Shown piece by piece: positions 1-24,884 of a DNA stretch of 34,208 nt (position 1 is its first letter; each line of letters begins with the position of its first letter). The stretch comes from a virus (Duplodnaviria; Heunggongvirae; Uroviricota; Caudoviricetes). The DNA lies in the IMG/VR virus record IMGVR_UViG_2778261511_000013; one strand, written 5' to 3'. Made by a program: the position numbers and the translations under genes. Below the pieces are notes generated by a model, which was not told the origin of the DNA, did no database searches, and saw only the letters and a program-made list of their open reading frames with translations.

Positions 1-705
1 TCATATTAGAACCTCCCCGAGTAAACATTCCCAACGAAATTTCTTCAGTTTATATATTTCTAAATTATCCCTAATTATTCCATCCTGCTTTGCTTTATCG
101 GCCCAACGATTATGAGGATGTACAGTCCCAACTAACTGCCACCCAGCACCTTTTAAAGATGCGCCTGTTTCACTGCTTAGAGTATAGGTAATAATTTTTT
201 CTCCTCCCATCATTTTCCAGATTGTGCTACATCGACTAATCAGAAAGGAGCAAGTTCCTTTTGGAGATTTGTCACTGACACATAATCGTGTAATCTCTGC
301 CGTCACACCATCCATGTACGTTGCAGATACGGGATTTCCAACTATCGCTACACCAACCAATTCATCAGAATCTATGTGGTAGGCAGCTATAGCCCATCTG
401 CCCGAATTCCTTGACGTTGGTCGATGGTGTCGATGATAAATAGAAACAAATTCATTTGCTTTTTTTATCGTTATAGGTTTTACATATAGTAACTTCGCCA
501 AAATCCACACCTTGTAACATGATGGTAATATCATTACAACAATACAAAACTTATTGATTTTTAACAACCAATTATAATGCCTAACCCCCATAGCACTACT
601 TATCTTGTCTTCAAAAATCAGCTCGCATCCTGCACAGTTCAGCGCATTACGTTGTAGATCTGTGTTCTGGTCATTTGTTGACACACGTACATAGCCAATA
701 AGCAT
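1..705 (-). CDS. chimeric ORF: invertase N-terminus (~36 codons) fused in frame to an unrelated domain with GNAT-acyltransferase-like motifs (possible Mom-like modification enzyme or toxin)
   Basis: Open frame from ATG at 705 (SD CAGGGAG 8 nt upstream) to TGA at 3..1. Residues MLIGYVRVSTNDQNTDLQRNAL...IFEDK match the Hin/Gin/Pin serine-recombinase N-terminus, then similarity stops. Downstream ...ELVGVAIVG...RLCV..KSPKGTCSFLISRC...TYTLSSETGASLKGAGWQLVG resembles GNAT motifs. AT-rich linker at about 480-600. Confidence 0.4.
   Translation of the reverse strand: MLIGYVRVSTNDQNTDLQRNALNCAGCELIFEDKISSAMGVRHYNWLLKINKFCIVVMILPSCYKVWILAKLLYVKPITIKKANEFVSIYHRHHRPTSRNSGRWAIAAYHIDSDELVGVAIVGNPVSATYMDGVTAEITRLCVSDKSPKGTCSFLISRCSTIWKMMGGEKIITYTLSSETGASLKGAGWQLVGTVHPHNRWADKAKQDGIIRDNLEIYKLKKFRWECLLGEVLI
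598..705 (-). pseudogene. DNA invertase (Hin/Gin/Pin-family serine recombinase) N-terminal remnant; catalytic core and HTH absent
   Basis: Only about 36 aa including the YVRVST motif with the nucleophilic Ser are retained; no recombinase sequence follows. Confidence 0.6.
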
Positions 706-759
706 GGTAGATCTCCCTGACAAAAGCAGGGATGATGCCATTTGCTCGTTATTTCTACA

Positions 760-785
760 TTTTCATAAACGTTGGTTTGGGAGAA
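760..785. repeat. invertase crossover site (hix/gix-like 26-bp dyad), one boundary of the invertible tail-fibre segment
   Basis: TTTTCATAAACG-TT-GGTTTGGGAGAA; 20/26 identical to the reverse complement of the site at 2591-2616; resembles hixL TTCTTGAAAACCAAGGTTTTTGATAA as I recall it. Confidence 0.65.
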
Positions 786-1238
786 GGTTCGGCATTACCC
801 GTTGGTGTGCCTGTTCCGTGGCCTTCCGCCACTCCGCCAACAGGCTGGCTAAAATGCAATGGTGCGGCTTTTTCTGCTGAAGAATACCCGGAACTGGCAA
901 AGGTTTATCCGACAAATAAATTGCCTGATTTACGCGGTGAATTTATTCGTGGCTGGGATGACGGACGTGGAGTGGATGCCGGGCGACAATTATTATCTTC
1001 ACAGGGGGATGCAATAAGAAATATTGAGGGATTCGCAGATGGCGGAATCGGTATGTCTTTTGATGCAATCAGAGGGGCTTTTTACGATGCAGGAACACGA
1101 TCAGCGAGAATGCCGAATAACACAACTACTATAGACAAAACCGATGACCTTGGATTCGACGCCTCTCGTGTCGTGCCAACAGCTAATGAAAACCGTCCAC
1201 GTAACATCGCCTTTAATTATATTGTGAGGGCTGCATAA
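786..1238 (+). CDS. alternate tail-fibre C-terminal (variable) cassette, silent in the current orientation
   Basis: Frame is continuous through the crossover site (..NVGLGE|GSALPVGVPVPWP..); contains ..GWLKCNGAAFSAEEYPELAKVYP.., typical of Mu S / P2 H-type fibre C-termini; no independent start or SD; stop overlaps the Tfa start (TAATG at 1236-1240). Confidence 0.6.
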   Translation, partial: GSALPVGVPVPWPSATPPTGWLKCNGAAFSAEEYPELAKVYPTNKLPDLRGEFIRGWDDGRGVDAGRQLLSSQGDAIRNIEGFADGGIGMSFDAIRGAFYDAGTRSARMPNNTTTIDKTDDLGFDASRVVPTANENRPRNIAFNYIVRAA

Positions 1239-1831
1239 TGAAACCTGTTTTTGATGAAAATGGGCTGGCTACAGTGCCGGGTGATATGCGTTGTTTTTAT
1301 TATGATGCAGTAACGTCTGAATATACGGGCTGGTCTGATGAATATATTAATACTGGCGTAAGTATGCCCGCCTGTTCCACTGGTATTGACCCGGGCGAAT
1401 ACATTCCGGGGAAAGTGGCAGTATTTACGGGTAAGGGATGGAGCCATGAAGAAGACCACCGCAATAAGACTGTTTACTCAATCGAAAATGGCGCAGCTGT
1501 TACAGTGGATTATATCGGTGCCATCAAAGACGGTTATGTCACGATTTCAGCGTTAACGCCATACGATAAATGGGATGGTGAGAAATGGGTGACAGACACT
1601 GAGGCACAACACAGTGCCGCAGTAGACGCGGCAGAAGCACAGCGCCAGTCACTGATTGATGCAGCAATGGCTTCCATTAGTCTGATTCAGCTGAAATTAC
1701 AGGCCGGGCGGAAACTGACGCAGGCAGAAACAACCCGGCTTAACGCTGTGCTGGATTATATTGACGCGGTGACGGCAACAGATACCAGCACAGCGCCGGA
1801 CGTCATCTGGCCTGAACTGCCGGAGGCGTAG
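1238..1831 (+). CDS. tail fibre assembly protein (Tfa) for the alternate fibre cassette
   Basis: 197 aa; C-terminal ..LNAVLDYIDAVTATDTSTAPDVIWPELPEA matches the Tfa family signature; follows the fibre cassette. Confidence 0.75.
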   Translation: MKPVFDENGLATVPGDMRCFYYDAVTSEYTGWSDEYINTGVSMPACSTGIDPGEYIPGKVAVFTGKGWSHEEDHRNKTVYSIENGAAVTVDYIGAIKDGYVTISALTPYDKWDGEKWVTDTEAQHSAAVDAAEAQRQSLIDAAMASISLIQLKLQAGRKLTQAETTRLNAVLDYIDAVTATDTSTAPDVIWPELPEA

Positions 1832-2243
1832 GCCATTCAATATCTGGCGCACCGGAAGTATCGACCAGTTCCAGTGCGTCCAGATAATCCAGCCACAAAT
1901 TATATTGCGCCAGTTCCTCACCTTTCAGGCGACCAATCGCCGCTTTACCAGGCCATTGCTTACTGTTTATGTATTCGTTGACCTGATTAATCAATTGCTG
2001 CTTTTCCAGTTCGGCTGCGGCAATTTGTTCCTCATGAGTTGGCGGTGGAATATCAATCCATGCAGGCATTCCGTCGATGACACCTCTGTATTTTCCTTCT
2101 GGTGCTTCCTTCATAAATTCGGCGGCAACAGTGTCGTCAATTTCGATTCCATCATCGGGCCATTCACCGGATTCCTGATAAGCGATTTTAAGCTCCACAG
2201 GGAAAAACGCATTTTTATCGGCACTGAAAATATATTTCTGCAT
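1803..2243 (-). CDS. tail fibre assembly protein (Tfa) for the expressed fibre
   Basis: 146 aa; C-terminus ..YNLWLDYLDALELVDTSGAPDIEWPTPP is Tfa-like; convergent with the + strand Tfa as in Mu G and e14 P segments. Confidence 0.75.
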   Translation of the reverse strand: MQKYIFSADKNAFFPVELKIAYQESGEWPDDGIEIDDTVAAEFMKEAPEGKYRGVIDGMPAWIDIPPPTHEEQIAAAELEKQQLINQVNEYINSKQWPGKAAIGRLKGEELAQYNLWLDYLDALELVDTSGAPDIEWPTPPAVQAR

Positions 2244-2245
2244 TT

Positions 2246-2959
2246 CTACCGTCCTATCGAAATATAACTGAATCTGTATTGCTGTGAGATATCACTGGTT
2301 GCCACACGCCACGCTGAATTACTGATATGTTCAAAATTTACAGACAAAACCTGCGGGGCAGGATTCGACGGGTCTGACTGAACGGCATCAGACATAACAC
2401 TGACTGAAACCATCGGCTGATTAGGGAATGGTATAGGGAAGTGTCCACTGATAAAGCGGGTCGTGTTTCCTGAAAAAGTGCCAAACTGAACAATATATCC
2501 ACCTGGTAGCCTGAACCATCCCGAACCAGAAGCGAATGCTCCCATATCCGGTATCTGATTATCTCCTGTGCCCACATCCCTTTTCGCCGCTTCTCCTAAA
2601 CCAAGGTTTTCGAGAGCCGTTTTCACCGTGCCATCCGATTTGATATCGCCAAACGGATTCTTGCGGCTCAGGTATTCAACAGCAAACCCCGATCCCAGCA
2701 ATTCAACAAAACCGGGCAGATCACCATTATCAAGCACATCCCGTTGCGTTTTATCACTTACAAACTGGGCCAGAGCTGCAGCAATAAAGCTGGCCTGCCG
2801 AATAACCTTATTGACTTGCGCACTGGAGGCTTTCCCTGCTGTAAATCCAGATAAAAGCGCGGGCAACGCTTCCCATTCCTCCTGCGATATAACATTGGCA
2901 TTTCGATCCGTTGCAAACGCTTTAAAGTCATTTTTCGCCATCAGAGTAATACTCCCCAT
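2246..2959 (-). CDS. tail fibre protein (constant N-terminal part about 2617-2941, variable C-terminal part 2246-2590)
   Basis: 237-aa ORF downstream of the baseplate genes; crossover site lies within the gene at the GLGE motif; likely start is the ATG at 2941 (MAKNDF..), overlapping the upstream stop (TGATG). Confidence 0.65.
2591..2616. repeat. invertase crossover site (hix/gix-like dyad) inside the tail-fibre gene
   Basis: TTCTCCTAAACC-AA-GGTTTTCGAGAG; inverted relative to the 760-785 site; encodes LENLGLGE in the fibre frame. Confidence 0.65.
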
Positions 2960-4817: not shown

Positions 4818-5170
4818 TACGCCTCCGATGTAACAGTCGTTATTCCATAAAGAGTGTCGATTTCAGCGGAAAACATGACACGTCGGGTCGTGGTATCCAC
4901 CGTCGTATTGAAAGAGAGGATTGATTTAACGCCCTGCGTTTCGAGGATGCGCTTACGGATCGCCAGGTTGTAGGTTTCCGGCTTCTGCTTACCGAGTACG
5001 GACTGGATCCACGGAGTCCCCTCGGTGGTGTCGAGAAACCATTGCCCATACCACAATTCGAATCGCGTTTTTACCGCCTGCGCCACGGCCTCCGGTGAGT
5101 TAATCAGCCAGGTGTCATCACCGCTGCCAAAGGTGTAATCGCCATCGGCGTCTTCACGTCTGTATCGCAT
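4817..5170 (-). CDS. baseplate wedge protein (gp25/W-like)
   Basis: 117 aa immediately upstream of the J-like gene with ATGA overlap; canonical position. Confidence 0.5.
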   Translation of the reverse strand: MRYRREDADGDYTFGSGDDTWLINSPEAVAQAVKTRFELWYGQWFLDTTEGTPWIQSVLGKQKPETYNLAIRKRILETQGVKSILSFNTTVDTTTRRVMFSAEIDTLYGITTVTSEA

Positions 5171-5922
5171 CAGTTTACTCCGTCGGTATTGCTTCCACCG
5201 CGCTGAACACCACCATGAGTGTGCGTATCATCAATTGGCTTGCCGTTAGCCTTCACGCTACCCAAAAACTCAACAGCACCAGTGATTTTTGAAGCCACAC
5301 CAGAAACCACAGACCCCACCATGCCACCCATCCAGGTTAACAGGCCATGAATGGTTACTTTCTCAGAAAAATCAGCCAGAGGGGCAACCACATCAAGACC
5401 ACCCGGAGCGACAATTTTAATTTTCCTGGTATCAGGATTAAGCTCAAAATAGGTGCTGCCGTCATCACTACGCAACTGTGTGGCACTGGTATTAATACCG
5501 CTAATCTTCCTTGCCTGCGACTGGGGACCGACAATACAAAACGCATCCGATAAATCATGCATTCTGTCATCGACCGGCTCCTGTATCCCGCCGCTCTGCC
5601 ACCAGAAATCAATACAACGATCGGCAAAAATCATCAAACATTCATCACCGGCTTTAACTGGGAACGTTAGCGTGCATCCTCCGCCGCGCGGGAATACCAC
5701 TGGCACATCCACCAGCAATGGGTAATTTTGGGTAATGCGGTTGCCGTCATTATCCTTTTCAACCGAACGGATAGCAGGCTGCACAACTGCCGTCACCGCA
5801 TCAGGATCGAATGACTGAATAATGCCAGGCAAGGCGACACGGATCTGGTTCTTTGTTGTTTCCCGTTCAGATTTGAATGTTTCGGCAAGGTCGCCGCTGC
5901 GGGTCTGGTCAGATACGGCCAT
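5170..5922 (-). CDS. baseplate spike/assembly protein (gpV / Mu gp45-like)
   Basis: 250 aa; Gly/Val-rich C-terminal tip region; position before the W-like gene. Confidence 0.5.
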   Translation of the reverse strand: MAVSDQTRSGDLAETFKSERETTKNQIRVALPGIIQSFDPDAVTAVVQPAIRSVEKDNDGNRITQNYPLLVDVPVVFPRGGGCTLTFPVKAGDECLMIFADRCIDFWWQSGGIQEPVDDRMHDLSDAFCIVGPQSQARKISGINTSATQLRSDDGSTYFELNPDTRKIKIVAPGGLDVVAPLADFSEKVTIHGLLTWMGGMVGSVVSGVASKITGAVEFLGSVKANGKPIDDTHTHGGVQRGGSNTDGVN

Positions 5923-6696: not shown

Positions 6697-7050
6697 TTAA
6701 TCGTCAACCTTCTTACAAGGAAACGAACCTATGATTCTCGGCGCATCCATGCTGTTCTGCAGTAGTTGGACATTCAAGAAACGCGTTTCGGTACCCGGAC
6801 GGCGAATGAACTCGAAACCGTAATTGTTACCGTCTTTGGCTGGCATAAGCCCCATATCCGCCTTCATTCCATTACCGTTGCCGAGCGTTTTGATTTTCTG
6901 GGAGGTAACTGTCTCACCATTAATCCTGAACAATGAATCAGGAATCAACTCTAATTTGTAGCCACCACACTGAAGCGTGACACCGCCAGGATTCGCAGCA
7001 AATGCGAACCCCGGAAGGAAACAGAGTCCAATAACAATCCACTTTTTCAC
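6697..7050 (-). CDS. secreted/periplasmic small protein (117 aa) with cleavable signal peptide, unknown function
   Basis: GTG start with strong SD (GAGGTAGGA); N-terminus (M)KKWIVIGLCFLPGFAFA|ANP has an AxA signal-peptidase I site; two Cys in the mature part. Confidence 0.55.
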   Translation of the reverse strand: MKKWIVIGLCFLPGFAFAANPGGVTLQCGGYKLELIPDSLFRINGETVTSQKIKTLGNGNGMKADMGLMPAKDGNNYGFEFIRRPGTETRFLNVQLLQNSMDAPRIIGSFPCKKVDD

Positions 7051-8117
7051 TATCCTACCTCACGCTGTAAAGACGACGCCGAACGAAGATCCGCCGCACC
7101 GCGCGCTTCGCACATCATATCCATGTACCACGCCTGGCCCCTTGTGTCGCCAGTGTACATAATCCCGCGCACAATATAAACGCCATCCGTTGCGATGCTG
7201 GCAGGCTGCGATATGGTGCCGCTTAGCGTAATATTTCCGTCCGTGTTCTGGTCGGTGATCTGCCCACCAGCCATAGCGATATCGTTGTTCGACAACGCGG
7301 TGCGATATACGGAAGCCTGATCCAGTTGAATGAGCCCATTAACCCGGATGTTCGGATTAATAAGCGCGCGGACGTTTACGCCGTTGCCGATGGTCTGCTG
7401 CGGCATGCCAATAAGCCCGGTAGCGCTGTTGAGCACAATCGCTTCGTGAACATATTCATTATTCACCACCATCTGGCGCTGACCATCCACGAATTGCCAT
7501 GTTGCGCCACATTGCCCGGCTACGTTATCCATTAGATGCCGCGTCATGCCAAAGAGCACCCGCCCCCGGGGGAATACAGTAGCAGGCATTTCAGGCGTCA
7601 GGCCTTCGGTCGCACCTTTGGCTTCGAAGTCTTTCATCAGCGCACGGTTCACATCAGCGACCGTGTAACCGGCAGCCAGCGTCTGTGAGGTTATACTGGT
7701 GGCAAAAGCCAGATCAGTATCTGCTGCCTGAATCAGGACGTAGGAATCAACCGGACTGTCTTTTCCTGTGACCGAGTAGCGAATTTCACCGCTGAAAATC
7801 AGTCCGTAGTTGCGGCCATCTCTCTGGCCCACGTCCGCCGCGTCAACTTCCCGCACGGTCCCTACGTCGCTTGCTGACACCTCCGGCGCGATACCGTCGT
7901 AACCGGCAATCAGACGCACTTTCGAAAATTCCTGCCCGGTGATTCGGTTCACAGTATCTGCCGAGAGGTTATAAATTTTGATAGTCCCTACCCGGGACGC
8001 GCTGCTGATGTTGAACCAGTCGATCGTAAAGGTGACTTTGAAATCACTTAGCTCAATTCCCTGACCGTTCCCGTCCACAAGCTGCAGCTCGAAATGTCTC
8101 ATCCAGTTCTGTGACAT
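7050..8117 (-). CDS. baseplate hub protein (Mu gp44 / P-like)
   Basis: 355 aa; position after the tape measure and small tail proteins. Confidence 0.45.
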   Translation of the reverse strand: MSQNWMRHFELQLVDGNGQGIELSDFKVTFTIDWFNISSASRVGTIKIYNLSADTVNRITGQEFSKVRLIAGYDGIAPEVSASDVGTVREVDAADVGQRDGRNYGLIFSGEIRYSVTGKDSPVDSYVLIQAADTDLAFATSITSQTLAAGYTVADVNRALMKDFEAKGATEGLTPEMPATVFPRGRVLFGMTRHLMDNVAGQCGATWQFVDGQRQMVVNNEYVHEAIVLNSATGLIGMPQQTIGNGVNVRALINPNIRVNGLIQLDQASVYRTALSNNDIAMAGGQITDQNTDGNITLSGTISQPASIATDGVYIVRGIMYTGDTRGQAWYMDMMCEARGAADLRSASSLQREVG

Positions 8118-8119
8118 GC

Positions 8120-8422
8120 TTACTCCGTTGATACCAGTAAATGACTGAGGCCGCCCAGATCAGTTTTCGTGGGATAATCCTGTGTGTTGTCATCGCAGAC
8201 CACCACCAGCTTAAAACCAAGTCCCATACAGGCGTACTGCGCCAGCAGGTCAGCACCAGTGACGAGAGGAATACCGGAGATTACCGGCTCCCCTCTGTCG
8301 TTCTGCAGGTCCATAATCCAGTACAGATCGCGCCATATGATGCTAATCCGCCAGGTAACACCACCCAGGACGATGCTGAACTGCTGGTTGTCCGCTGTCA
8401 GCGGAATTTCCTGAATTGTCAT
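8120..8422 (-). CDS. tail protein (100 aa)
   Basis: Tightly packed ORF in the tail operon. Confidence 0.4.
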   Translation of the reverse strand: MTIQEIPLTADNQQFSIVLGGVTWRISIIWRDLYWIMDLQNDRGEPVISGIPLVTGADLLAQYACMGLGFKLVVVCDDNTQDYPTKTDLGGLSHLLVSTE

Positions 8423-9009
8423 TAGCCGCCCCCCAGTAATGACGCCACGTTACCCGTGATGCTTTTCAGCAGTGAAGTATCTGGAGGCTTGGTGGTTTTG
8501 TTGCCGCTGTTCTGTACCGCCGACGTGCTAGCCCCTTCCTTCATGTTGGTTTTATCCGCGACGGTAATCTGCTGCGTCCGGGAGATAAGGACCTCCCTCA
8601 GGGTGAGGACGGCGGACAGGACGTTTTCGGTTGTCTTGTCCGTCGTCACTTCCAGCGCCCGGATCAACATGTTGCTGTACAGTCGTTTACCGGTTACCAC
8701 ATCGAAGGGGATACGGCTTTCCTGCAGATCCAGTAGCTCCTGATACGTCTGCTGAGGACTCAGGCCGAGCAGGCTGGTAGCCGTCAGATTACTGGCAAAA
8801 TCCAGCAATGCGCCGCCACCGGCGAAACCAACCTCCATCACCACTTCTGACGGTTTTTTATAGGCATGATCAGCGACAGCGGCCCCAACCTCTACCGGAT
8901 GCTCTGTTATTTCAAGCATATCTGTATGCTTCTCTGAAATAACAACACTGGGAACAATCATTCCTATTTTTCTGCTCTGCTGATGAAAAAGTGTAGAGAG
9001 AATATCCAC
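8422..9009 (-). CDS. tail protein (195 aa)
   Basis: Overlaps neighbouring genes by a few nt; directly downstream of the tape measure. Confidence 0.4.
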   Translation of the reverse strand: MDILSTLFHQQSRKIGMIVPSVVISEKHTDMLEITEHPVEVGAAVADHAYKKPSEVVMEVGFAGGGALLDFASNLTATSLLGLSPQQTYQELLDLQESRIPFDVVTGKRLYSNMLIRALEVTTDKTTENVLSAVLTLREVLISRTQQITVADKTNMKEGASTSAVQNSGNKTTKPPDTSLLKSITGNVASLLGGG

Positions 9010-10997
9010 TAACCCACCCTCACCTGATTACTTCGCATGACCTGAGCATTTGCAGACTGTTGCCGACGTGCAACCTCATTACCGACAGCGTGCGGATCTC
9101 CACCACCGTAAATGTGGTAGGTATTTTGCTGGTTAACCTCTGTCATTTTGCCACTAATTCCCGCCACGGCAGCCTTATTAATCAGCTCTCGAGAATAGAT
9201 ATTTCTTCCATTTTCATGCTGGATAATGCTGCTCATCAATGCTGACATGGTTTGCGGATCGCTCATATTCAGGGCAGCCCGGGGATCCACTCCCAGTCGT
9301 TGCGATACAGCCCTGATATACGCAGTTGTGTTGTTATTATCAGACGCAGGTGCCCAGGTAGAGATAATTTTCTCCACACTGTTTATTCCCCGTCCGGCGT
9401 ACAGCATTAACTGACGAGCAAGAGCCCGTAATCCATCAAAAGCAGTTTCAAATCTGGCAAATCGCCCGCCCGGGCGTTCAAGAGAAGCCCCTGCCTGACC
9501 AGCAAAATTAAGGTTTCCCGGATTGTTATTCCGTTCTCCTCGTTTCGTAGCCTGTGCATATTGTTCCGGCTCATCATCACCAAACCAGCCGCGTACCGTC
9601 CGGCCCACACTGCGGGGATCGAATCCCCAGTGCTCTTTAATCCAGTCGGCAGTACTGTTAGCGCTGTCTGTAACCATCGGCATCGCTGACGGATTTTCGC
9701 TGCCCTGATTAAGTATCTGTTTGCCGATGATGACGGCATCAGCCCAGCGGCCATCTTTGATAGCGTTGAGCAGGTCGGCGATCATGTTCAGCATTTTGCT
9801 GAATTCGCCCATCTGGTCGATGAAGTTGCTGAAATCCCACTTCAGGGACCATGATTTTGGGTCAATATTGAGCAGTTTCGCCAGCGCTTTCGCCAGTTCA
9901 TTAACAGACCCTTTCAGGTCACGAACCATCTTCAGCGCGGCATCGACCTCCGGCTTCCACTTGCCCCAGTCAATCAGGCTGTCGCCGCCTTCCTTCCAGG
10001 TCTGATAGTCCTCCCACAGAAGGGCAATCCCCGCCGCCAGCGCGGTAATGAGACCAATCGGCGACATCCAGAACGTACTGTTCAGAATGCGCAGCGCAAT
10101 CGTCAGCGCGCCAAACAGCGAGATGAGCTCCCGCGTTTGCTTATCCAGCGATTGCCACCAGGTGATAAGGCTGGATGTTCCCTCAATTAGCCTGAAGAAC
10201 AGCCGCCCGATGATGTCTCCGATCGCCAGAATGCCTTTTATGGCTTTCGTCAGGGTCTGCTCGATACGAGGGAAGTTGTCCAGGATATGGCGGCGCAGGG
10301 TGTCCAGCGAACCCGCAAGCCCACCCGCAAGATTAGAGCCGATTTTGTCACGGGCCATGCCTGCCATCGCGCCGAACTCGCGCAGGGAGGTCATGAATTT
10401 GTTGGAGCTTCTGGCCGCCTCGTCAGCATTGAAGCCGATAGCTTTCGCCATTGCGCTGTACTGCCCGGAGAACCCCCCCACACCCCGGCGCATCGCCATA
10501 AGGGTATTTTCGTCAATGCCCAGCATCTGCGCATACTGGTTAGCCCGGTAATACGGCATGCTGCTGAGCTTCTGGCCGACGCCCGTAAAGATAGCGGCCA
10601 TGTCGCGCATGTTACCGCTGGCGTCACGGGTCTGTACCCCCAGACGATTCAGAAATCCCTCCGCCCCGGGGTTATTACGGATAAAACGGGCAAGGCTCTC
10701 CAGTGACCCGCGCGCAGCGTCCACGCTGCCGCCAACCTGCGAAACCGCATAGCCAATAGACTGAATTCCCTGGACTGTCGCGCCGGTGCGCTGTGACGCC
10801 CAGTAAAGATTATCCAGGCCGGAGGCGATCTTAGCCGTGAAGGCCACCACGGACAGCGCAGCTCCTTCAACGGCCAGTCCCATTTTGATGACATTTGCAG
10901 TTGTACCGGCGAGGACAGAACCGAACTTTTTCGCTCCTGCATCATCCACACTGAAGCCAAGCGAGACGAGGAAATCTTTAATAGTTTCAGCGTTCAT
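9009..10997 (-). CDS. tail tape measure protein
   Basis: About 660 aa, Ala/Gly-rich with predicted helical and hydrophobic segments; start MNAETIKD at 10997 overlaps the stop of the frameshifted chaperone extension. Confidence 0.75.
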   Translation of the reverse strand: MNAETIKDFLVSLGFSVDDAGAKKFGSVLAGTTANVIKMGLAVEGAALSVVAFTAKIASGLDNLYWASQRTGATVQGIQSIGYAVSQVGGSVDAARGSLESLARFIRNNPGAEGFLNRLGVQTRDASGNMRDMAAIFTGVGQKLSSMPYYRANQYAQMLGIDENTLMAMRRGVGGFSGQYSAMAKAIGFNADEAARSSNKFMTSLREFGAMAGMARDKIGSNLAGGLAGSLDTLRRHILDNFPRIEQTLTKAIKGILAIGDIIGRLFFRLIEGTSSLITWWQSLDKQTRELISLFGALTIALRILNSTFWMSPIGLITALAAGIALLWEDYQTWKEGGDSLIDWGKWKPEVDAALKMVRDLKGSVNELAKALAKLLNIDPKSWSLKWDFSNFIDQMGEFSKMLNMIADLLNAIKDGRWADAVIIGKQILNQGSENPSAMPMVTDSANSTADWIKEHWGFDPRSVGRTVRGWFGDDEPEQYAQATKRGERNNNPGNLNFAGQAGASLERPGGRFARFETAFDGLRALARQLMLYAGRGINSVEKIISTWAPASDNNNTTAYIRAVSQRLGVDPRAALNMSDPQTMSALMSSIIQHENGRNIYSRELINKAAVAGISGKMTEVNQQNTYHIYGGGDPHAVGNEVARRQQSANAQVMRSNQVRVG

Positions 10998-21745: not shown

Positions 21746-22297
21746 TTAGCCCATCATTTTTCTATACGCCTCTGCAGCCTGCTCCGGCGTTAAGTTGGTA
21801 ATTTCTGTTCTGACTGGTCCTCCATCAGCGCCAGTCACTTCATTTTTGACGTTGTCTTTAAACGCCTGAACAGAAACATGACGCCCAAGCAACTCAAGGT
21901 TTTTAACCTTATCAGGCCATTTGATTTTCTTCAGAAGTGCGGCGCTATCTGCGGATACCATCTCCATGACATCCATTCCTGATAGCGTTGTGCGCCATAC
22001 CTTAGGCCAGTCTTTAATGGGTTTTAGATCACCGTTTTGCAGGAGAATGTCGAGCACATCCATCTGGTCGATTTCAATAAGGCGATTAAGTACATATTCT
22101 GCATTAATACCAACAAGATCATTGCGTTGCGCTTTCAGTTCAGCGATTCTGAATTGTATGTCAGGTTTTGACAGGTTTTCGGATGCGGTACGGTTAGCTG
22201 TCTTTGCGCTGTACCCCGCCCGAATAGCCGCTTGCGTGGCGTTTAAATCGATGAGGTACTCGCGACAGAACATTTCTTGCTTGTCGGTGAGTGCCAT
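21746..22297 (-). CDS. terminase small subunit
   Basis: 183 aa with an N-terminal HTH-like region (..[15 protein letters not shown]..), directly upstream of the large subunit. Confidence 0.65.
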
Positions 22298-22316
22298 TGA
22301 TATACCTGAGGAAATT

Positions 22317-22865
22317 ATGAAGTTAGAAGATTTCGCAGCTTATAACCGCCCTCAATCGAAGGTGTCCGATGAGAGGAAATTTCTTGATTACATTCACAGT
22401 CGGAACAGATGGGTTGAGTTTATCAAAAGCATCGATAACGCAAAGCCAGTATCAATTGCCATGAAAAATTCATTCCATAGTCAATGGGTTGAGTCTGGGG
22501 CCTTTATACGTGAAAAGATCAACGACGACTCAATTCTCCTCAAACTATTAACGCTCTTATTGCCAACATATGATGGTGACAGCCTTGTACTTTATCGGGG
22601 GGAAAATAAAGACAGGTTCGATAAAGGGCTCATTGGATTTTGCTGGACAACGGACATTTCAGTCGCCGAGAAGTTTGGTCGTGGATTGAATGCATACAAA
22701 TCACCAGGTTTGCTGTTAAGAGCTGAAGCTCCAGCCTGTTCTATATTAGCTGGCCCCAATGCCCACAGTCGTTATCTTGGTGAAAATGAGTTCACGGTTA
22801 ACCCCTCGCGTCTTTCAAACATAACCGTTATTGAAACCTATCCGGACAACTCTTTTTTCAAATGA
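22317..22865 (+). CDS. AT-rich cargo protein (182 aa), divergent from the terminase; unknown function, weak ADP-ribosyltransferase-like motif pattern
   Basis: ATG at 22317 with SD GAGGAAA; on the opposite strand to all flanking late genes; contains ..LYRGE.., ..CWTTD.. and ..GENEF.. (R / S-T-like / E-x-E); appears AT-rich by eye. Confidence 0.55.
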   Translation: MKLEDFAAYNRPQSKVSDERKFLDYIHSRNRWVEFIKSIDNAKPVSIAMKNSFHSQWVESGAFIREKINDDSILLKLLTLLLPTYDGDSLVLYRGENKDRFDKGLIGFCWTTDISVAEKFGRGLNAYKSPGLLLRAEAPACSILAGPNAHSRYLGENEFTVNPSRLSNITVIETYPDNSFFK

Positions 22866-22997
22866 TGAATAAATAGATGCCCTATACTTCACCCGCCACT
22901 GGTACGCCGTTTCGATGGCCTCCCAGTCCGGTTTTGCCATGAATTTTTCCTCTTAGTGACATTATCGAAGCTCCTTATCAAAGGAGCTTCTGTAATG

Positions 22998-23183
22998 TCA
23001 GTCCCGAACAAACGTAACCTTCGTGTTTGTCGCTCGCCTTACAAGGCGCGCCGCTTCGCGTTGCATTTCATCGATAACTTTTGGCGTCATCGGCTGATGC
23101 GCATATTTACGTTCAATCTCTGCAAAAATCCCGTTCATCGTTTCGCTGTCTGGTGGGATAACTTCAACGTTTAATCGTGCCAT
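22998..23183 (-). CDS. small protein (61 aa), unknown function
   Basis: MARLNVEVIPPDSETMNGIFAEIERKYAHQPMTPKVIDEMQREAARLVRRATNTKVTFVRD; protein-like composition and same strand as the late genes, but no clear SD; a + strand ORF at 22995-23174 with a strong SD overlaps it. Confidence 0.3.
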   Translation of the reverse strand: MARLNVEVIPPDSETMNGIFAEIERKYAHQPMTPKVIDEMQREAARLVRRATNTKVTFVRD

Positions 23184-23442
23184 TAGTTTGTGCTGCCCTG
23201 TTTTTCTCAAAGGTCCTGATATCAGCCTTATCCCTGTTGCACTGTGCTAACGCTGACAACAACGCAACATTCAGGTTAAGGCTGGCTCCCCACGTAAACG
23301 GGTCGGGTAAATCTGGCTGGGGTGTTTCATCCGTCAGACTGGCTGGTAACGGAACGACCGGCACCGACACGTATACCGTTCGCGTATTCGTGCAACCGCT
23401 TAACTGCGCCAGAAGGAACGATACGAACAGCGCAATCATCAT
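23164..23442 (-). CDS. Rz1: o-spanin (Rz1-like outer-membrane lipoprotein)
   Basis: Starts MMIALFVSFLLAQLSGC (lipobox LSGC), Pro-rich; begins inside the 3' end of Rz in another frame and extends beyond it. Confidence 0.6.
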   Translation of the reverse strand: MMIALFVSFLLAQLSGCTNTRTVYVSVPVVPLPASLTDETPQPDLPDPFTWGASLNLNVALLSALAQCNRDKADIRTFEKNRAAQTNGTIKR

Positions 23443-23719
23443 CCGCAACAGCCACTTTGATATCTTCCTGGGTTCTCTGTGACTCCAGTGCGATCTGCTG
23501 TTTTGCATGCTGGTTAGCCTCTATAACTGTATTGATGATTTGCAGAGATTGCAGGACGTTACTGGTAATGGCTGTTGCAGATTCAGCATTTCGTACAGCC
23601 TCATCAGCACGCTCCTTTTCGTGCTGATATTTGCTGTAGTAATGCCCGGCAGACCAGATAAAAGAACCGATGACGGTAACAAAGAAGGCAACAATAACCA
23701 GCTTATATCTCAGCTTCAT
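23327..23719 (-). CDS. Rz: i-spanin (Rz-like), not the lambda allele
   Basis: 130 aa with an N-terminal TM segment (LVIVAFFVTVIGSFIW) and helix-prone periplasmic domain; follows the endolysin. Confidence 0.7.
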   Translation of the reverse strand: MKLRYKLVIVAFFVTVIGSFIWSAGHYYSKYQHEKERADEAVRNAESATAITSNVLQSLQIINTVIEANQHAKQQIALESQRTQEDIKVAVADDDCAVRIVPSGAVKRLHEYANGIRVGAGRSVTSQSDG

Positions 23720-24179
23720 TTACCACCCCACCCGCTTCTTTAAATCGGGCAATCAGGTCACCGATTCTATGTTCATACTGACCGTAACCAGCCCCCGGCA
23801 ACGAAGCCCAGATATTGCTGCAACGGTCGATTGCCTGACGAATATCGCCGCGGTCAATCATCGGTAAAGCGCTACGCTCTTTAATCTGCTGCAGCGCTAC
23901 AGCATCCTGGCTTTCTGGAGAAAAATCTTTCAGGCCAAGTTGCTTGCGGTAGGCATCCCACCAGCGTGAAAGAAGCTGGTAGCGACCGGCTGCTGTTGAT
24001 TTGAGTTTGAGGTTTAGCGTGACAAGTTTGCGAGGGTGATCAGAGTAATCAGTGAATAGCTCTCCGCCTACAATGACGTCATAACCATGATTTCTGGTTT
24101 TCTGCCGTCCGTTATCAGTTCCCTCCGACCACGCCAGCATATCGAGGAACGCCTTACGTTGATTATTGATTTCCACCAT
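23703..24179 (-). CDS. R: endolysin (lambda R-type lytic transglycosylase)
   Basis: 158 aa; [39 protein letters not shown].. matches lambda R as I recall it. Confidence 0.9.
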
Positions 24180-24486
24180 CTTCTACTCCGGCTTTTTTAG
24201 CAGCGAAGCGTTTGATAAGCGAACCAATCGAGTCAGTACCGATGTAGCCGATGAACACGCTCGTTATATAAGCGAGATTGCTATTTAGTCCGGCGAAGTC
24301 GAGAAGGTCACGAATGAACCAGGCGATAATGGCGCACATCGTTGCGTCGATTACTGTTTTTGTAAACGCACCGCCATTATATCTGCCGCGAAGGTACGCC
24401 ATTGCAAACGCAAGGATTGCCCCGATGCCTTGTTCCTTTGCCGCGAGAATGGCGGCTAACAGGTCATGTTTTTCTGGCATCTTCAT
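24163..24486 (-). CDS. S: holin/antiholin (lambda S, class I, dual start)
   Basis: 107 aa; [39 protein letters not shown].. matches lambda S107/S105. Confidence 0.9.
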
Positions 24487-24727: not shown

Positions 24728-24804
24728 ATGGTGCTGGTTAACGGACTTGAACCGCTACCCATTCGCTTACAAGGCGACTGCTCTACCATTGGAGCTAAAC
24801 CAGC
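24728..24804 (-). tRNA. tRNA, anticodon UGU by manual fold (tRNA-Thr)
   Basis: GCTGGTT-TA-GCTC-CAATGGTA-GAGC-A-GTCGC-CTTGTAA-GCGAA-TGGGT-AGCGG-TTCAAGT-CCGTT-AACCAGC-A-CCA; perfect 7-bp acceptor stem, good D and T arms, encoded CCA. Confidence 0.7.
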
Positions 24805-24809
24805 ATATT

Positions 24810-24884
24810 TGGCGGGACAGCGTGGACTCGAACCACGATAAGAAGGTTAACAGCCTTCCGTAATGACCTTTATACGACTGACCC
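24810..24884 (-). tRNA. tRNA-like gene, anticodon GUU by manual fold (tRNA-Asn-like), possibly degenerate
   Basis: GGGTCAG..GAAGG-CTGTTAA-CCTTC..CGTGG-TTCGAGT-CCACG-CTGTCCC-G-CCA; good anticodon and T arms, but a T:T mismatch in the acceptor stem and a weak D stem. Confidence 0.45.

What the first reader, a model, noticed from the sequence alone, without database searches (positions are those of the whole stretch)
22317..22865. Divergently transcribed AT-rich 182-aa cargo gene between lysis cassette and terminase, with a weak ADP-ribosyltransferase-like motif pattern
This is the only sizeable gene in the late region on the opposite strand, sitting where lambda carries bor. It has a good SD, appears AT-rich, and contains ..VLYRGENK.., ..FCWTTDIS.. 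and ..LGENEFT.., an Arg / Ser-Thr-like / Glu-x-Glu series in the order used by R-S-E ADP-ribosyltransferases. Spacing between the first two motifs (about 17 aa) is shorter than in classical toxins, so this is a weak hypothesis. Such lysogenic-conversion genes are typically toxins, effectors or defence/anti-defence factors.
Basis: partly seen in the sequence, partly recalled or inferred. Interest (0 to 1): 0.7.

Follow-up and report, generated by a model that had tools for sequence, protein, structure and literature searches.

The report
Unannotated ADP-ribosyltransferase-like prophage cargo gene
A small gene that sits backwards between the lysis and DNA-packaging genes of an E. coli prophage (also present in the lab strains B, REL606 and BL21) most likely encodes an enzyme of the ADP-ribosyltransferase toxin/effector class, from a large family that no database has named; its target is unknown.

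Summary
The ORF is real: 22317-22865 (+), 182 aa, good Shine-Dalgarno sequence, 42% GC, under purifying selection. It is the only opposite-strand gene between the lysis cassette and terS.

No Pfam, NCBIfam, PADLOC or PDB sequence match exists, although the family has about 1000 clusters at 50% identity.

The gene is always solitary, with no immunity gene, signal peptide or delivery domain. It is mobile cargo: a presence/absence cassette (22298-22900) in a slot divergent from Terminase_2 terS, an attC-flanked integron cassette, and next to integrases and restriction genes.

Target, activity and expression are untested, and no σ70 promoter was found. I read it as a new family of a known enzyme kind, probably a phage-host conflict gene. 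Whether it is defence or anti-defence is open.

The parts
22317..22865 (+). 182-aa ART-like gene (WP_000762846.1 in E. coli B REL606; annotated as hypothetical protein)
   Evidence: ORF and translation. Identical in REL606, BL21 and E. coli C. PHROG 30882, unknown function. dN/dS 0.13-0.30. AF2 pLDDT 91.6.
22317..22574 (+). N-terminal five-helix domain (residues 1-86). The first ~50 aa are variable; W57, G61, R65, D71, P83, Y85 and G87 are conserved.
   Evidence: DSSP on the model shows helices 3-9, 18-28, 32-40, 47-68 and 71-81.
22575..22862 (+). ART-like beta core (residues 87-182): beta1 90-97, beta2 109-111, helix 114-122, beta3 131-138, beta4 143-145, loop with helix 149-153, beta5 158-161, beta6 167-175
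22596..22598 (+). Codon of R94 (Y-R-G-E on beta1), candidate NAD-binding Arg
   Evidence: R in 90/90, G95 in 89/90 and Y/F93 in 86/90 diverse family members.
22647..22649 (+). Codon of T111 (G-x-x-W-[TS], end of beta2, followed by a helix), candidate 'S' of the R-S-E triad
   Evidence: T in 62 and S in 27 of 90; W110 and G107 in 90/90; strand then helix.
22782..22790 (+). E156-N157-E158, candidate ExE catalytic dyad at the start of beta5
   Evidence: E156 in 88/90 and E158 in 83/90, followed by [YF]-x-V-D. In the closer set A1, E158 is E, Q or H.
22308..22313 (+). Shine-Dalgarno sequence GAGGAA, 5 nt upstream of the ATG
   Evidence: Read directly from the sequence.
22298..22900 (.). Presence/absence cargo cassette (the gene plus short flanks)
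   Evidence: Of 5426 complete E. coli genomes, 489 match the flanks but only 88 carry the gene. Matches stop at window 22297/22307 on the left and resume at 22901 on the right. Prophages with the same terS carry other small divergent genes here.
21746..22297 (-). Small terminase subunit (Terminase_2), the constant divergent neighbour
   Evidence: Pfam PF03592, E 6e-40. It lies 19-20 bp from the ART start in every enterobacterial prophage locus, even where ART identity is only 43-47%.
22213..22297 (.). First ~85 nt of terS, unusually conserved at nucleotide level (unexplained; possibly a regulatory region or recombination junction for the slot)
   Evidence: Near-invariant columns in alignment A3. 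Synonymous divergence is 0.00-0.65 in codons 1-28 (mostly 0.1-0.5), against 0.3-1.1 in codons 29-60 for most pairs, excluding the near-identical L028/L030 pair. The same 81 bp is 95% identical in P22 as an unannotated fossil.
22901..22940 (-). Fossil 5' end (13 codons, MAKPDWEAIE...) of a different 249-aa small-terminase-like gene, marking the right recombination joint
   Evidence: The 41-aa ORF 22815-22940 matches the start of WP_001118114.1, which precedes a PBSX-type TerL in L046.
22957..23000 (.). Very stable 19-bp hairpin 92 nt downstream of the ART stop, overlapping the stop codon (22998-23000) of the 70-aa late-strand ORF. It has no U-tract.
   Evidence: MFE -27.1 kcal/mol, z = -8.3, 0 of 200 shuffles as good. 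Not called as a terminator.

Best explanation
The gene encodes a cytoplasmic, stand-alone enzyme of the ADP-ribosyltransferase superfamily, R-[ST]-E clade. It has an N-terminal helical domain and a minimal six-stranded ART core.

Proposed chemistry (inferred). R94 (beta1) and T111 (end of beta2) hold NAD+. The E156-x-E158 dyad at beta5 catalyses transfer of ADP-ribose to a macromolecule. Because the motif is ExE, the target is most probably an arginine of a protein.

Proposed role (inferred). It is self-contained mobile cargo, not part of the phage's core programme. In enterobacterial prophages it occupies a variable slot transcribed divergently from terS and antisense to the late operon. It would therefore be made, if at all, outside late lytic transcription, that is in the lysogen or early in infection, and be opposed by the late transcript. 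The same family travels as integron cassettes and next to integrases and restriction genes. I therefore think it is a phage-host conflict gene. My preferred reading is that the enzyme modifies a component of an incoming phage, or a host factor that phage needs, and so protects the lysogen. It needs no immunity protein either because the target is not essential to the host or because the N-terminal domain keeps it inactive until triggered.

Shown here: the gene is real and selected, the fold neighbours, the motif conservation, the solitary state and the mobility.
Inferred: catalysis, arginine specificity, timing of expression, and defence rather than counter-defence.
For: Fold.
- The AF2 model has pLDDT 91.6 and pTM 0.83.
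- All of the top 50 Foldseek PDB hits are ART-fold proteins: TreX (prob 0.94), Tpt1/KptA, Vis, cholera toxin, ExoS, PARP15 and C2-I.
- BFVD neighbours include DarT, ART-PolyVal and MuF/minor-capsid fusion proteins.

Motif.
- R94 is conserved in 90/90 relatives, G95 in 89, G107 and W110 in 90, T/S111 in 89, E156 in 88 and E158 in 83.
- These residues sit on beta1, at the end of beta2 before a helix, and at the start of beta5. That is where ARTs place their catalytic triad (PMC9825190).
- ExE is described as typical of arginine-modifying ARTs (PMC11606950).

Real gene. dN/dS is 0.13-0.30, and there is no hydrophobic segment (max KD19 1.19).

Solitary. No conserved neighbour appears across prophage, satellite, integron and island contexts.

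Mobility and conflict context.
- It is a cassette with sharp ends in E. coli, and the slot holds alternative cargo.
- One homologue is an attC-flanked integron cassette.
- Other homologues lie next to Mrr and HsdM, SLFN_AlbA_2 plus an integrase, P4-type integrases and DUF3800 plus a recombinase.
- An Acb2/Tad1-like gene is next door in a Pantoea prophage.
- Iyer et al. 2022 note that phage ARTs are often encoded near terminase and portal genes.
Against: - I could not inspect a residue-level superposition, so placing R94, T111 and E158 in an NAD cleft rests on secondary-structure position only.
- No sequence method links the family to any curated ART family: Pfam on 90 members, NCBIfam, the PDB profile search, and hhalign against T4 ModB.
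- The canonical S-T-S is replaced by [SAC]-W-[TS].
- In the nearest relatives, position 158 is sometimes Q or H.
- No sigma70-like promoter was found in 21900-23300 by the consensus scan, nor in the 237 bp upstream by a relaxed scan requiring 7 of 12 matches. Expression in the lysogen is therefore unproven.
- E. coli B carries an intact copy, yet it is the classical permissive host for T1-T7 and was lysogenised by lambda DE3 (established knowledge). Any defence must therefore be narrow or the gene silent.
- In several non-enterobacterial phages the homologue lies co-directionally inside late, tail or replication operons. That fits a phage-benefiting role, such as counter-defence or host takeover, as well as it fits defence.
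- No PADLOC model matches.
- Frameshifted and truncated copies exist.
Confidence: 0.5

Rival explanations
1. Counter-defence or host-takeover ART. The enzyme works for the phage or mobile element by ADP-ribosylating and disabling a host immune or housekeeping protein, as AcrIF11 does to Cas8f or T4 Alt/ModA/ModB do to RNA polymerase and other proteins.
Against: Family members also occur in chromosomal integron cassettes and next to Mrr, HsdM and Schlafen-like genes, which is more typical of defence cargo. There is no aca-type regulator next to it. In enterobacterial prophages the gene is antisense to the late operon, not in the early region. There is no sequence similarity to AcrIF11 or to Alt/Mod.
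Confidence: 0.2
2. ART-fold NAD+ glycohydrolase. The protein depletes NAD+ when triggered (abortive infection) rather than transferring ADP-ribose to a target.
Against: A conserved ExE dyad plus Arg and Ser/Thr is the transferase signature. The best fold matches are transferases. An unregulated NADase without immunity would be toxic, yet the gene is stably kept in E. coli B and C.
Confidence: 0.1
3. Small-molecule-modifying ART. The enzyme inactivates an antibiotic or toxin by ADP-ribosylation, like Arr acting on rifamycins. That would explain why it needs no immunity gene and why it occurs as an integron cassette.
Against: Arr scores lower than many protein-targeting ARTs. The R-S-ExE signature is typical of macromolecule modifiers. 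Most occurrences are in phages and prophages, where antibiotic resistance cargo is uncommon.
Confidence: 0.07
4. Classical lysogenic-conversion toxin or effector aimed at a eukaryotic host, like cholera, diphtheria or ArtAB toxins or the effector EspJ.
For: It is a prophage-borne ART-like gene in the slot where lambda carries bor. CT, LT, DT, C3 and ExoS are among the fold neighbours.
Against: There is no signal peptide or hydrophobic segment, no B-subunit or secretion partner nearby, and no delivery domain. The gene occurs in lab strains B and C and in environmental Pantoea, Methylomonas and metagenomes, including integron cassettes.
Confidence: 0.04
5. Not an enzyme. The protein is either an ART-like fold used only for binding (a pseudo-enzyme) or a small alpha/beta domain whose ART resemblance is fortuitous.
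Against: The hit lists are almost exclusively ARTs from many different clades. Exactly the three triad positions are the most conserved polar residues in a family with only 12% mean column identity.
Confidence: 0.09

Closest known systems
TreX / Tre1 (T6SS Rhs-delivered minimal R-S-ExE ADP-ribosyltransferase toxins)
   Different: TreX and Tre1 are C-terminal toxin domains of secreted polymorphic toxins, and each is always paired with an immunity gene (TriX, Tri1). The window's protein is free-standing, has its own N-terminal helical domain, has no immunity or delivery partner, and shows no detectable sequence similarity.
C3-like / Vis / ART2.2 arginine- or asparagine-specific mono-ARTs (R-S-E clade)
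   Different: Those enzymes are ~200-250-aa secreted proteins with a canonical S-T-S and a much longer R-to-S spacing. Here the protein is 182 aa, the spacing is 17 aa, the motif is [SAC]-W-[TS], and there is no signal peptide.
AcrIF11 (phage/plasmid anti-CRISPR mono-ART)
   Different: There is no sequence similarity and no adjacent aca regulator. E. coli B has no type I-F system (my own knowledge, not tested here). The aligned part is only 60 residues.
T4 Alt / ModA / ModB (phage R-S-E ARTs that retarget host machinery)
   Same: Phage-encoded cytoplasmic ARTs without immunity proteins; R-S-E type.
   Different: hhalign of the family profile against T4 ModB gave probability 0.6%, which is no relationship (the ModB sequence was verified). 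Alt and Mod belong to virulent phages and are expressed early or packaged. This gene is antisense to the late operon of a temperate phage.
Lambda bor (positional analogue)
   Same: An opposite-strand gene between Rz and the packaging genes of a lambdoid prophage. This is the classical place for a lysogen-expressed moron (established knowledge; layout).
   Different: Bor is a lipoprotein. This protein has no signal or lipobox sequence and an unrelated fold.
Arr (rifampin ADP-ribosyltransferase, integron cassette)
   Different: The match is weaker than to protein-targeting ARTs, the conserved residues differ, and Arr is not phage-associated.

Membership tests
ADP-ribosyltransferase superfamily, R-[ST]-E clade | Split beta-sheet ART fold (beta1-beta2-alpha-beta3-beta4-ARTT loop-beta5-beta6) | tested here: met
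ADP-ribosyltransferase superfamily, R-[ST]-E clade | Conserved Arg on beta1, preceded by an aromatic residue | tested here: met
   R94 in 90/90 and Y/F93 in 86/90, within strand 90-97.
ADP-ribosyltransferase superfamily, R-[ST]-E clade | Ser/Thr (S-T-S motif) at the end of beta2, followed by a helix | tested here: inconclusive
   T/S111 is conserved in 89/90 at the end of strand 109-111, before helix 114-122. However, the motif is [SAC]-W-[TS] rather than S-T-S, and I could not check side-chain placement in the cleft.
ADP-ribosyltransferase superfamily, R-[ST]-E clade | [QE]-x-E at the start of beta5, after the ARTT loop | tested here: met
   E156 in 88/90 and E158 in 83/90, with strand 158-161 and a conserved loop G-P-x-x-H-S-x-[YW]-L-G before it. 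Position 158 is Q or H in some close relatives.
ADP-ribosyltransferase superfamily, R-[ST]-E clade | Match to a curated ART sequence family (Pfam, NCBIfam) or to an ART of known structure by sequence | tested here: not met
   No Pfam hit for the protein or for any of 90 relatives. No NCBIfam hit. PDB phmmer and profile searches gave nothing real. hhalign against ModB gave 0.6%. None of 80 database relatives carries a Pfam domain.
ADP-ribosyltransferase superfamily, R-[ST]-E clade | NAD+ binding and ADP-ribosyl transfer | not testable with these tools
   Needs biochemistry, or at least a ligand-aware model.
ART toxin-immunity / toxin-antitoxin systems (Tre1-Tri1, TreX-TriX, DarTG, ParST, CmdTAC) | Adjacent cognate immunity or antitoxin gene | tested here: not met
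   No conserved neighbour appears in more than 20 distinct contexts. In an integron it is a single-ORF cassette. No Macro, ARH or NADAR family is among the 25 Pfam families listed for the window's proteins; 8 further families were not shown.
ART toxin-immunity / toxin-antitoxin systems (Tre1-Tri1, TreX-TriX, DarTG, ParST, CmdTAC) | Delivery module or secretion signal (for polymorphic toxins) | tested here: not met
   The protein is a free-standing 182 aa with no hydrophobic N-terminus (max KD19 1.19).
Known anti-phage defence systems (PADLOC-DB v2) | Match to a defence-system protein model | tested here: not met
   The only hit is a chance-level one to RT_UG26, E 0.024.
AcrIF11-type anti-CRISPR ARTs | Sequence homology to AcrIF11 and an adjacent aca regulator | tested here: not met
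Lambda Bor-type lysogenic-conversion lipoprotein | Opposite-strand gene between the lysis and packaging genes | tested here: met
   Layout. This is positional analogy only.
Lambda Bor-type lysogenic-conversion lipoprotein | Lipoprotein signal peptide / Bor homology | tested here: not met
   The N-terminus is hydrophilic (mean KD -1.3 over the first 20 aa), and there is no Pfam hit.

The most novel reading that the evidence does not exclude
This is the founding member, sitting in E. coli B, REL606 and BL21, of a widespread family of immunity-less single-gene ADP-ribosyltransferases (about 1000 clusters at 50% identity). The family moves between prophage moron slots, satellites, defence islands and integron cassettes. 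It would constitute a new stand-alone anti-phage system, or the reverse, a broadly used anti-immunity system, whose N-terminal helical domain gates a minimal R-S-ExE core.
Probability: 0.3. Interest if true: 0.75.

Novelty: new member of a known kind. Interest (0 to 1): 0.55.

Why it matters
If the prediction holds, a large family that is currently labelled 'hypothetical protein' in every database tried here would join the ADP-ribosyltransferases. That enzyme class sits at the centre of toxin biology and phage-bacterium conflict.

Unlike the bacterial ART toxins it most resembles, this one is solitary: it has no immunity partner and no delivery domain. That implies either a very specific, non-lethal target or built-in regulation, and either would be new information about how ARTs are used.

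It is easy to test. The gene is present, intact, in E. coli B, REL606 and BL21. Close prophages with and without the cassette exist naturally.

The work also defines a cargo slot divergent from Terminase_2 terS genes, where other unknown small genes sit.

Tried and rejected
Sequence routes to a name all failed:
- Pfam at E<=10 and Pfam on 90 relatives;
- NCBIfam and PADLOC;
- PHROGs, which gave only an unknown-function family;
- PDB phmmer and profile searches, whose only 'hits' were repetitive helical protein A constructs matching the N-terminal region and are spurious;
- tblastn against 50,697 phage records;
- hhalign of the family profile against T4 ModB, 0.6%;
- a second profile search for Pfam-annotated distant relatives, which found none.

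Other dead ends:
- The afdb50 fold library was unavailable.
- I looked for a partner or immunity gene. The 142-aa gene downstream in Pantoea, the 122-aa gene upstream in Methylomonas, and the 70-aa late-strand ORF 22998-23210 (61 aa as annotated by RefSeq) have no Pfam match and are not conserved with the gene.
- I looked for a promoter and terminator. There was none by the consensus scan, and none at a relaxed threshold of 7 of 12 matches in the 237 bp upstream.
- I considered the antisense-shadow idea and rejected it.
- I searched the literature for the accession and for prophage, moron or integron ARTs and found nothing on this family. The CmdT ART of Vassallo et al. is a different, three-gene system.

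Full report
**The observation**

The ORF is exactly as described. The ATG is at 22317 and the stop at 22863-22865, giving 182 aa on the + strand. GAGG lies 5 nt before the start, and a 19-bp gap separates the start from the divergent small-terminase gene (21746-22297, -).

Its neighbours, all on the - strand, are:
- to the right: a Q antiterminator, two tRNAs, holin, lysozyme, Rz, LysC and a 70-aa ORF;
- to the left: terS (Terminase_2), TerL and the portal.

The window is a lambdoid prophage (N, CII, O, DnaB, NinB/G, Q) with a myovirus-type tail.

The only other + strand genes in the late region (732-1831) are the alternate arm of an invertible tail-fibre segment.

The ORF has 42.4% GC against 49.6% for the window, in the lowest 7% of equal-sized windows. 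The three motifs and their numbering (R94, T111/T112, E156/E158) are correct.

**It is a real gene**

- The complementary strand has only 55- and 41-aa ORFs.
- dN/dS against homologues of 72-97% identity is 0.13-0.41.
- A profile of 41 homologues finds 1008 clusters (50% identity representatives) at E<=1e-3 and 679 at E<=1e-10.
- AlphaFold gives pLDDT 91.6 and pTM 0.83.

**What the protein is**

No sequence method names it:
- Pfam, NCBIfam, PADLOC and PDB sequence searches give nothing.
- PHROGs returns an unknown-function family.
- None of 90 diverse relatives or 80 further database relatives carries any Pfam domain.
- A family profile against PDB sequences gives only spurious helical-repeat hits.

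Structure gives a consistent answer. The model has five N-terminal helices (3-81) followed by beta 90-97, a short helix, beta 109-111, helix 114-122, beta 131-138, beta 143-145, a loop with helix 149-153, beta 158-161 and beta 167-175.
- Foldseek against the PDB returns ART-fold proteins in all of its top 50: TreX (prob 0.94), Tpt1/KptA, Vis, cholera toxin, ExoS, PARP15, C2-I, TreTu and PARP13. None has E<1e-3.
- Viral-structure neighbours include DarT, ART-PolyVal and MuF/minor-capsid fusion proteins.

The scores are modest, so the fold search cannot choose a clade. The conservation pattern can. Across 90 relatives with only 12% mean column identity, the best-conserved positions are:
- R94 (90/90), G95 (89), G107 and W110 (90);
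- T/S111 (89), A117 (89);
- E156 (88) and E158 (83).

These fall on beta1, at the end of beta2 just before a helix, and at the start of beta5. These are the three places where ARTs carry their catalytic triad (PMC9825190). The pattern reads [YF]-R-G-E ... G-x-x-W-[TS] ... E-x-E-[YF]-x-V-D, which is the R-[ST]-E clade with an ExE dyad.

TreX is a ~130-aa minimal toxin described as R-S-ExE, in which both Glu residues are required. ExE is described there as typical of arginine-modifying ARTs (PMC11606950).

Caveats:
- I could not obtain a residue-level superposition.
- S-T-S is replaced by [SAC]-W-[TS].
- In the nearest relatives, position 158 can be Q or H.
- hhalign against T4 ModB found nothing.

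**Where it lives**

The sequence is 100% identical in E. coli B REL606, BL21 and derivatives, and in a strain named E. coli C. There it is annotated as hypothetical protein WP_000762846.1, inside the (in REL606, truncated) prophage next to ybhC.

Of 5426 complete E. coli genomes, 489 match the flanks but only about 88-91 carry the gene. Matches stop at the terS start codon (22297/22307) and resume at 22901, so 22298-22900 is a presence/absence cassette.
- Prophages with 97-98% identical terS carry instead a 78-aa or 72-aa unrelated gene in the same divergent position.
- The right joint is marked by a fossil. The 41-aa ORF 22815-22940 begins with the first 13 codons of a different 249-aa small-terminase-like gene, which in other prophages precedes a PBSX-type TerL.

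The gene sits 19-20 bp from, and divergent to, a Terminase_2 terS in Klebsiella, in two Pantoea lineages and in several IMG/VR prophages. This holds even where the protein is only 43-47% identical and where the TerL, portal and lysis genes are different.

Elsewhere the family appears:
- next to P4-type integrases and AlpA in satellite-like elements;
- co-directionally after TerL, between tail genes of a GTA-like phage, or between the replication and lysis modules of high-GC phages;
- between Mrr and a type I methylase;
- near a Schlafen-like gene and an integrase;
- beside DUF3800 and a serine recombinase;
- as a single-ORF integron cassette bounded by attC sites (CCTAAC...GTTAGGC), downstream of an IntI-like integrase.

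No neighbour is conserved in any of these contexts. The protein has no hydrophobic segment. No Macro, ARH or NADAR family is among the Pfam families listed for the prophage (8 families were not shown).

**How it most likely works**

Shown: the gene is selected, solitary and mobile; its predicted fold is ART-like; and the R, S/T and ExE positions are nearly invariant.

Inferred: it binds NAD+ and transfers ADP-ribose to a macromolecule, probably a protein arginine, in the bacterial cytoplasm. Because it never travels with an immunity gene, either its target is not essential to the carrier or its variable N-terminal helical region keeps it off until triggered.

In enterobacterial prophages it lies antisense inside the late operon, and no terminator is predicted between the lysis genes and terS. 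Late transcription should therefore oppose it, and any expression would come in the lysogen or early in infection.

The company it keeps (integron cassettes, restriction genes, integrase-proximal hot spots, moron slots) points to phage-host conflict. I lean towards defence of the carrier. The counter-defence reading (AcrIF11-like, Alt/Mod-like) is not excluded. It is favoured by the co-directional phage contexts and by the Acb2/Tad1-like neighbour in one Pantoea prophage.

Against a broad defence role:
- E. coli B, which has an intact copy, is the classical host of T1-T7 and accepted lambda DE3 (established knowledge).
- I found no sigma70-like promoter in the 237 bp upstream, even at a relaxed threshold.
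- Frameshifted or truncated copies occur.

NADase, small-molecule (Arr-like), eukaryote-directed toxin and pseudo-enzyme readings are listed as rivals with lower weight.

**Comparison with what is known**

The protein works most like the minimal R-S-ExE toxins TreX and Tre1 and like the C3/Vis/ART2.2 group. It is not a member of their families by any sequence criterion, and it lacks their delivery and immunity context. Positionally it is the analogue of lambda bor, without any relationship to Bor.

I found nothing on this family in the accession and keyword literature searches I ran. The survey of viral NAD/ADPr systems notes only in general terms that phage ARTs are often encoded near terminase and portal genes (PMC9503650).

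**Verdict**

This is best filed as a new, unannotated family within a known enzyme superfamily, with unknown target and role. Interest is moderate: it is a well-defined, easily testable lead in a standard laboratory strain, not a new kind of system.

Noticed in passing
window 22213-22297; L043 (P22, AF217253) 2501-2581: The first ~85 nt of the Terminase_2 terS gene are almost invariant at nucleotide level across prophages whose terS proteins are otherwise only 60-80% identical. Synonymous divergence is 0.00-0.65 in codons 1-28 (mostly 0.1-0.5), against 0.3-1.1 in codons 29-60 for most pairs. The same 81 bp survive at 95% identity in phage P22 as an unannotated fossil between ORF80 and ORF201, although P22 uses a different terS (gene 3). 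This could be a recombination junction, a regulatory region for the divergent slot, or a packaging-related site. It remains unexplained.
   Followed up: partly
L043 (P22) about 2620-2880, + strand in locus orientation: Next to that fossil, P22 has an unannotated divergent ORF (MSDIEQKIAHLEDIIEKMQLDAH..., about 87 aa from the ATG, preceded by AAAGGAG). So P22 seems to keep the 'slot plus cargo' arrangement without the terminase gene.
   Followed up: no
L044 3123-3359 and L045 3121-3339 (E. coli prophages with 97-98% identical terS): The same divergent slot holds other small genes of unknown function (78 aa and 72 aa) in place of the ART-like gene. The slot is a cargo exchange site.
   Followed up: partly
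window 22815-22940 (-), especially 22901-22940: The 41-aa ORF overlapping the 3' end of the gene is not a gene. Its first 13 codons are the start of a different 249-aa small-terminase-like protein (WP_001118114.1) found upstream of a PBSX-type TerL in other prophages, which makes it a recombination scar.
   Followed up: yes
L049 3900-8000 (metagenome contig; homologue at 5001-5498): This is a chromosomal integron: an IntI-like integrase diverges from an array of at least 9 small cassettes, each bounded by attC-like inverted repeats (CCTAACAATTCATTCAAGCCGA ... TCGGCTTAATTCAGGCGTTAGGC). One cassette is a 38%-identical homologue of the window's protein.
   Followed up: yes
window 22957-23000: A near-perfect 19-bp hairpin (-27.1 kcal/mol, z = -8.3) overlaps the stop codon (22998-23000) of the 70-aa late-strand ORF and lies 92 nt downstream of the ART-like gene. 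It has no U-tract and its function is unknown.
   Followed up: partly
window 1-2959: This looks like an invertible tail-fibre segment. It has a Collar-domain fibre tip plus an assembly protein on the + strand (732-1831), facing an assembly protein plus fibre C-terminus on the - strand (1803-2959). The adjacent ORF 1-741 (-) combines a short Resolvase N-terminal match with a Mom-family match, which suggests a truncated or rearranged invertase.
   Followed up: partly
L001 (REL606) 6965-9601 compared with window 23164-24486: In E. coli B REL606 the prophage is deleted to the right of LysC. Holin, lysozyme and most of Rz are missing, and early-region genes, xis and int follow directly. The ART-like gene, terS and TerL remain 100% identical.
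   Followed up: partly
L032 5001-5524; L041 5001-5548; proteins P0231 and P0014: Frameshifted or truncated copies of the gene occur in some viral contigs and E. coli genomes, so it is dispensable and sometimes decaying.
   Followed up: no
L008 6638-6919 (Pantoea prophage): An Acb2/Tad1-hairpin family gene (an anti-CBASS/anti-Thoeris sponge family) occupies the position between the ART-like gene and the lysis cassette, on the late strand.
   Followed up: no
window 24729-24884 (-): tRNA-Thr(TGT) and tRNA-Asn(GTT) genes lie between the Q antiterminator and the holin gene, as in related E. coli prophages.
   Followed up: yes
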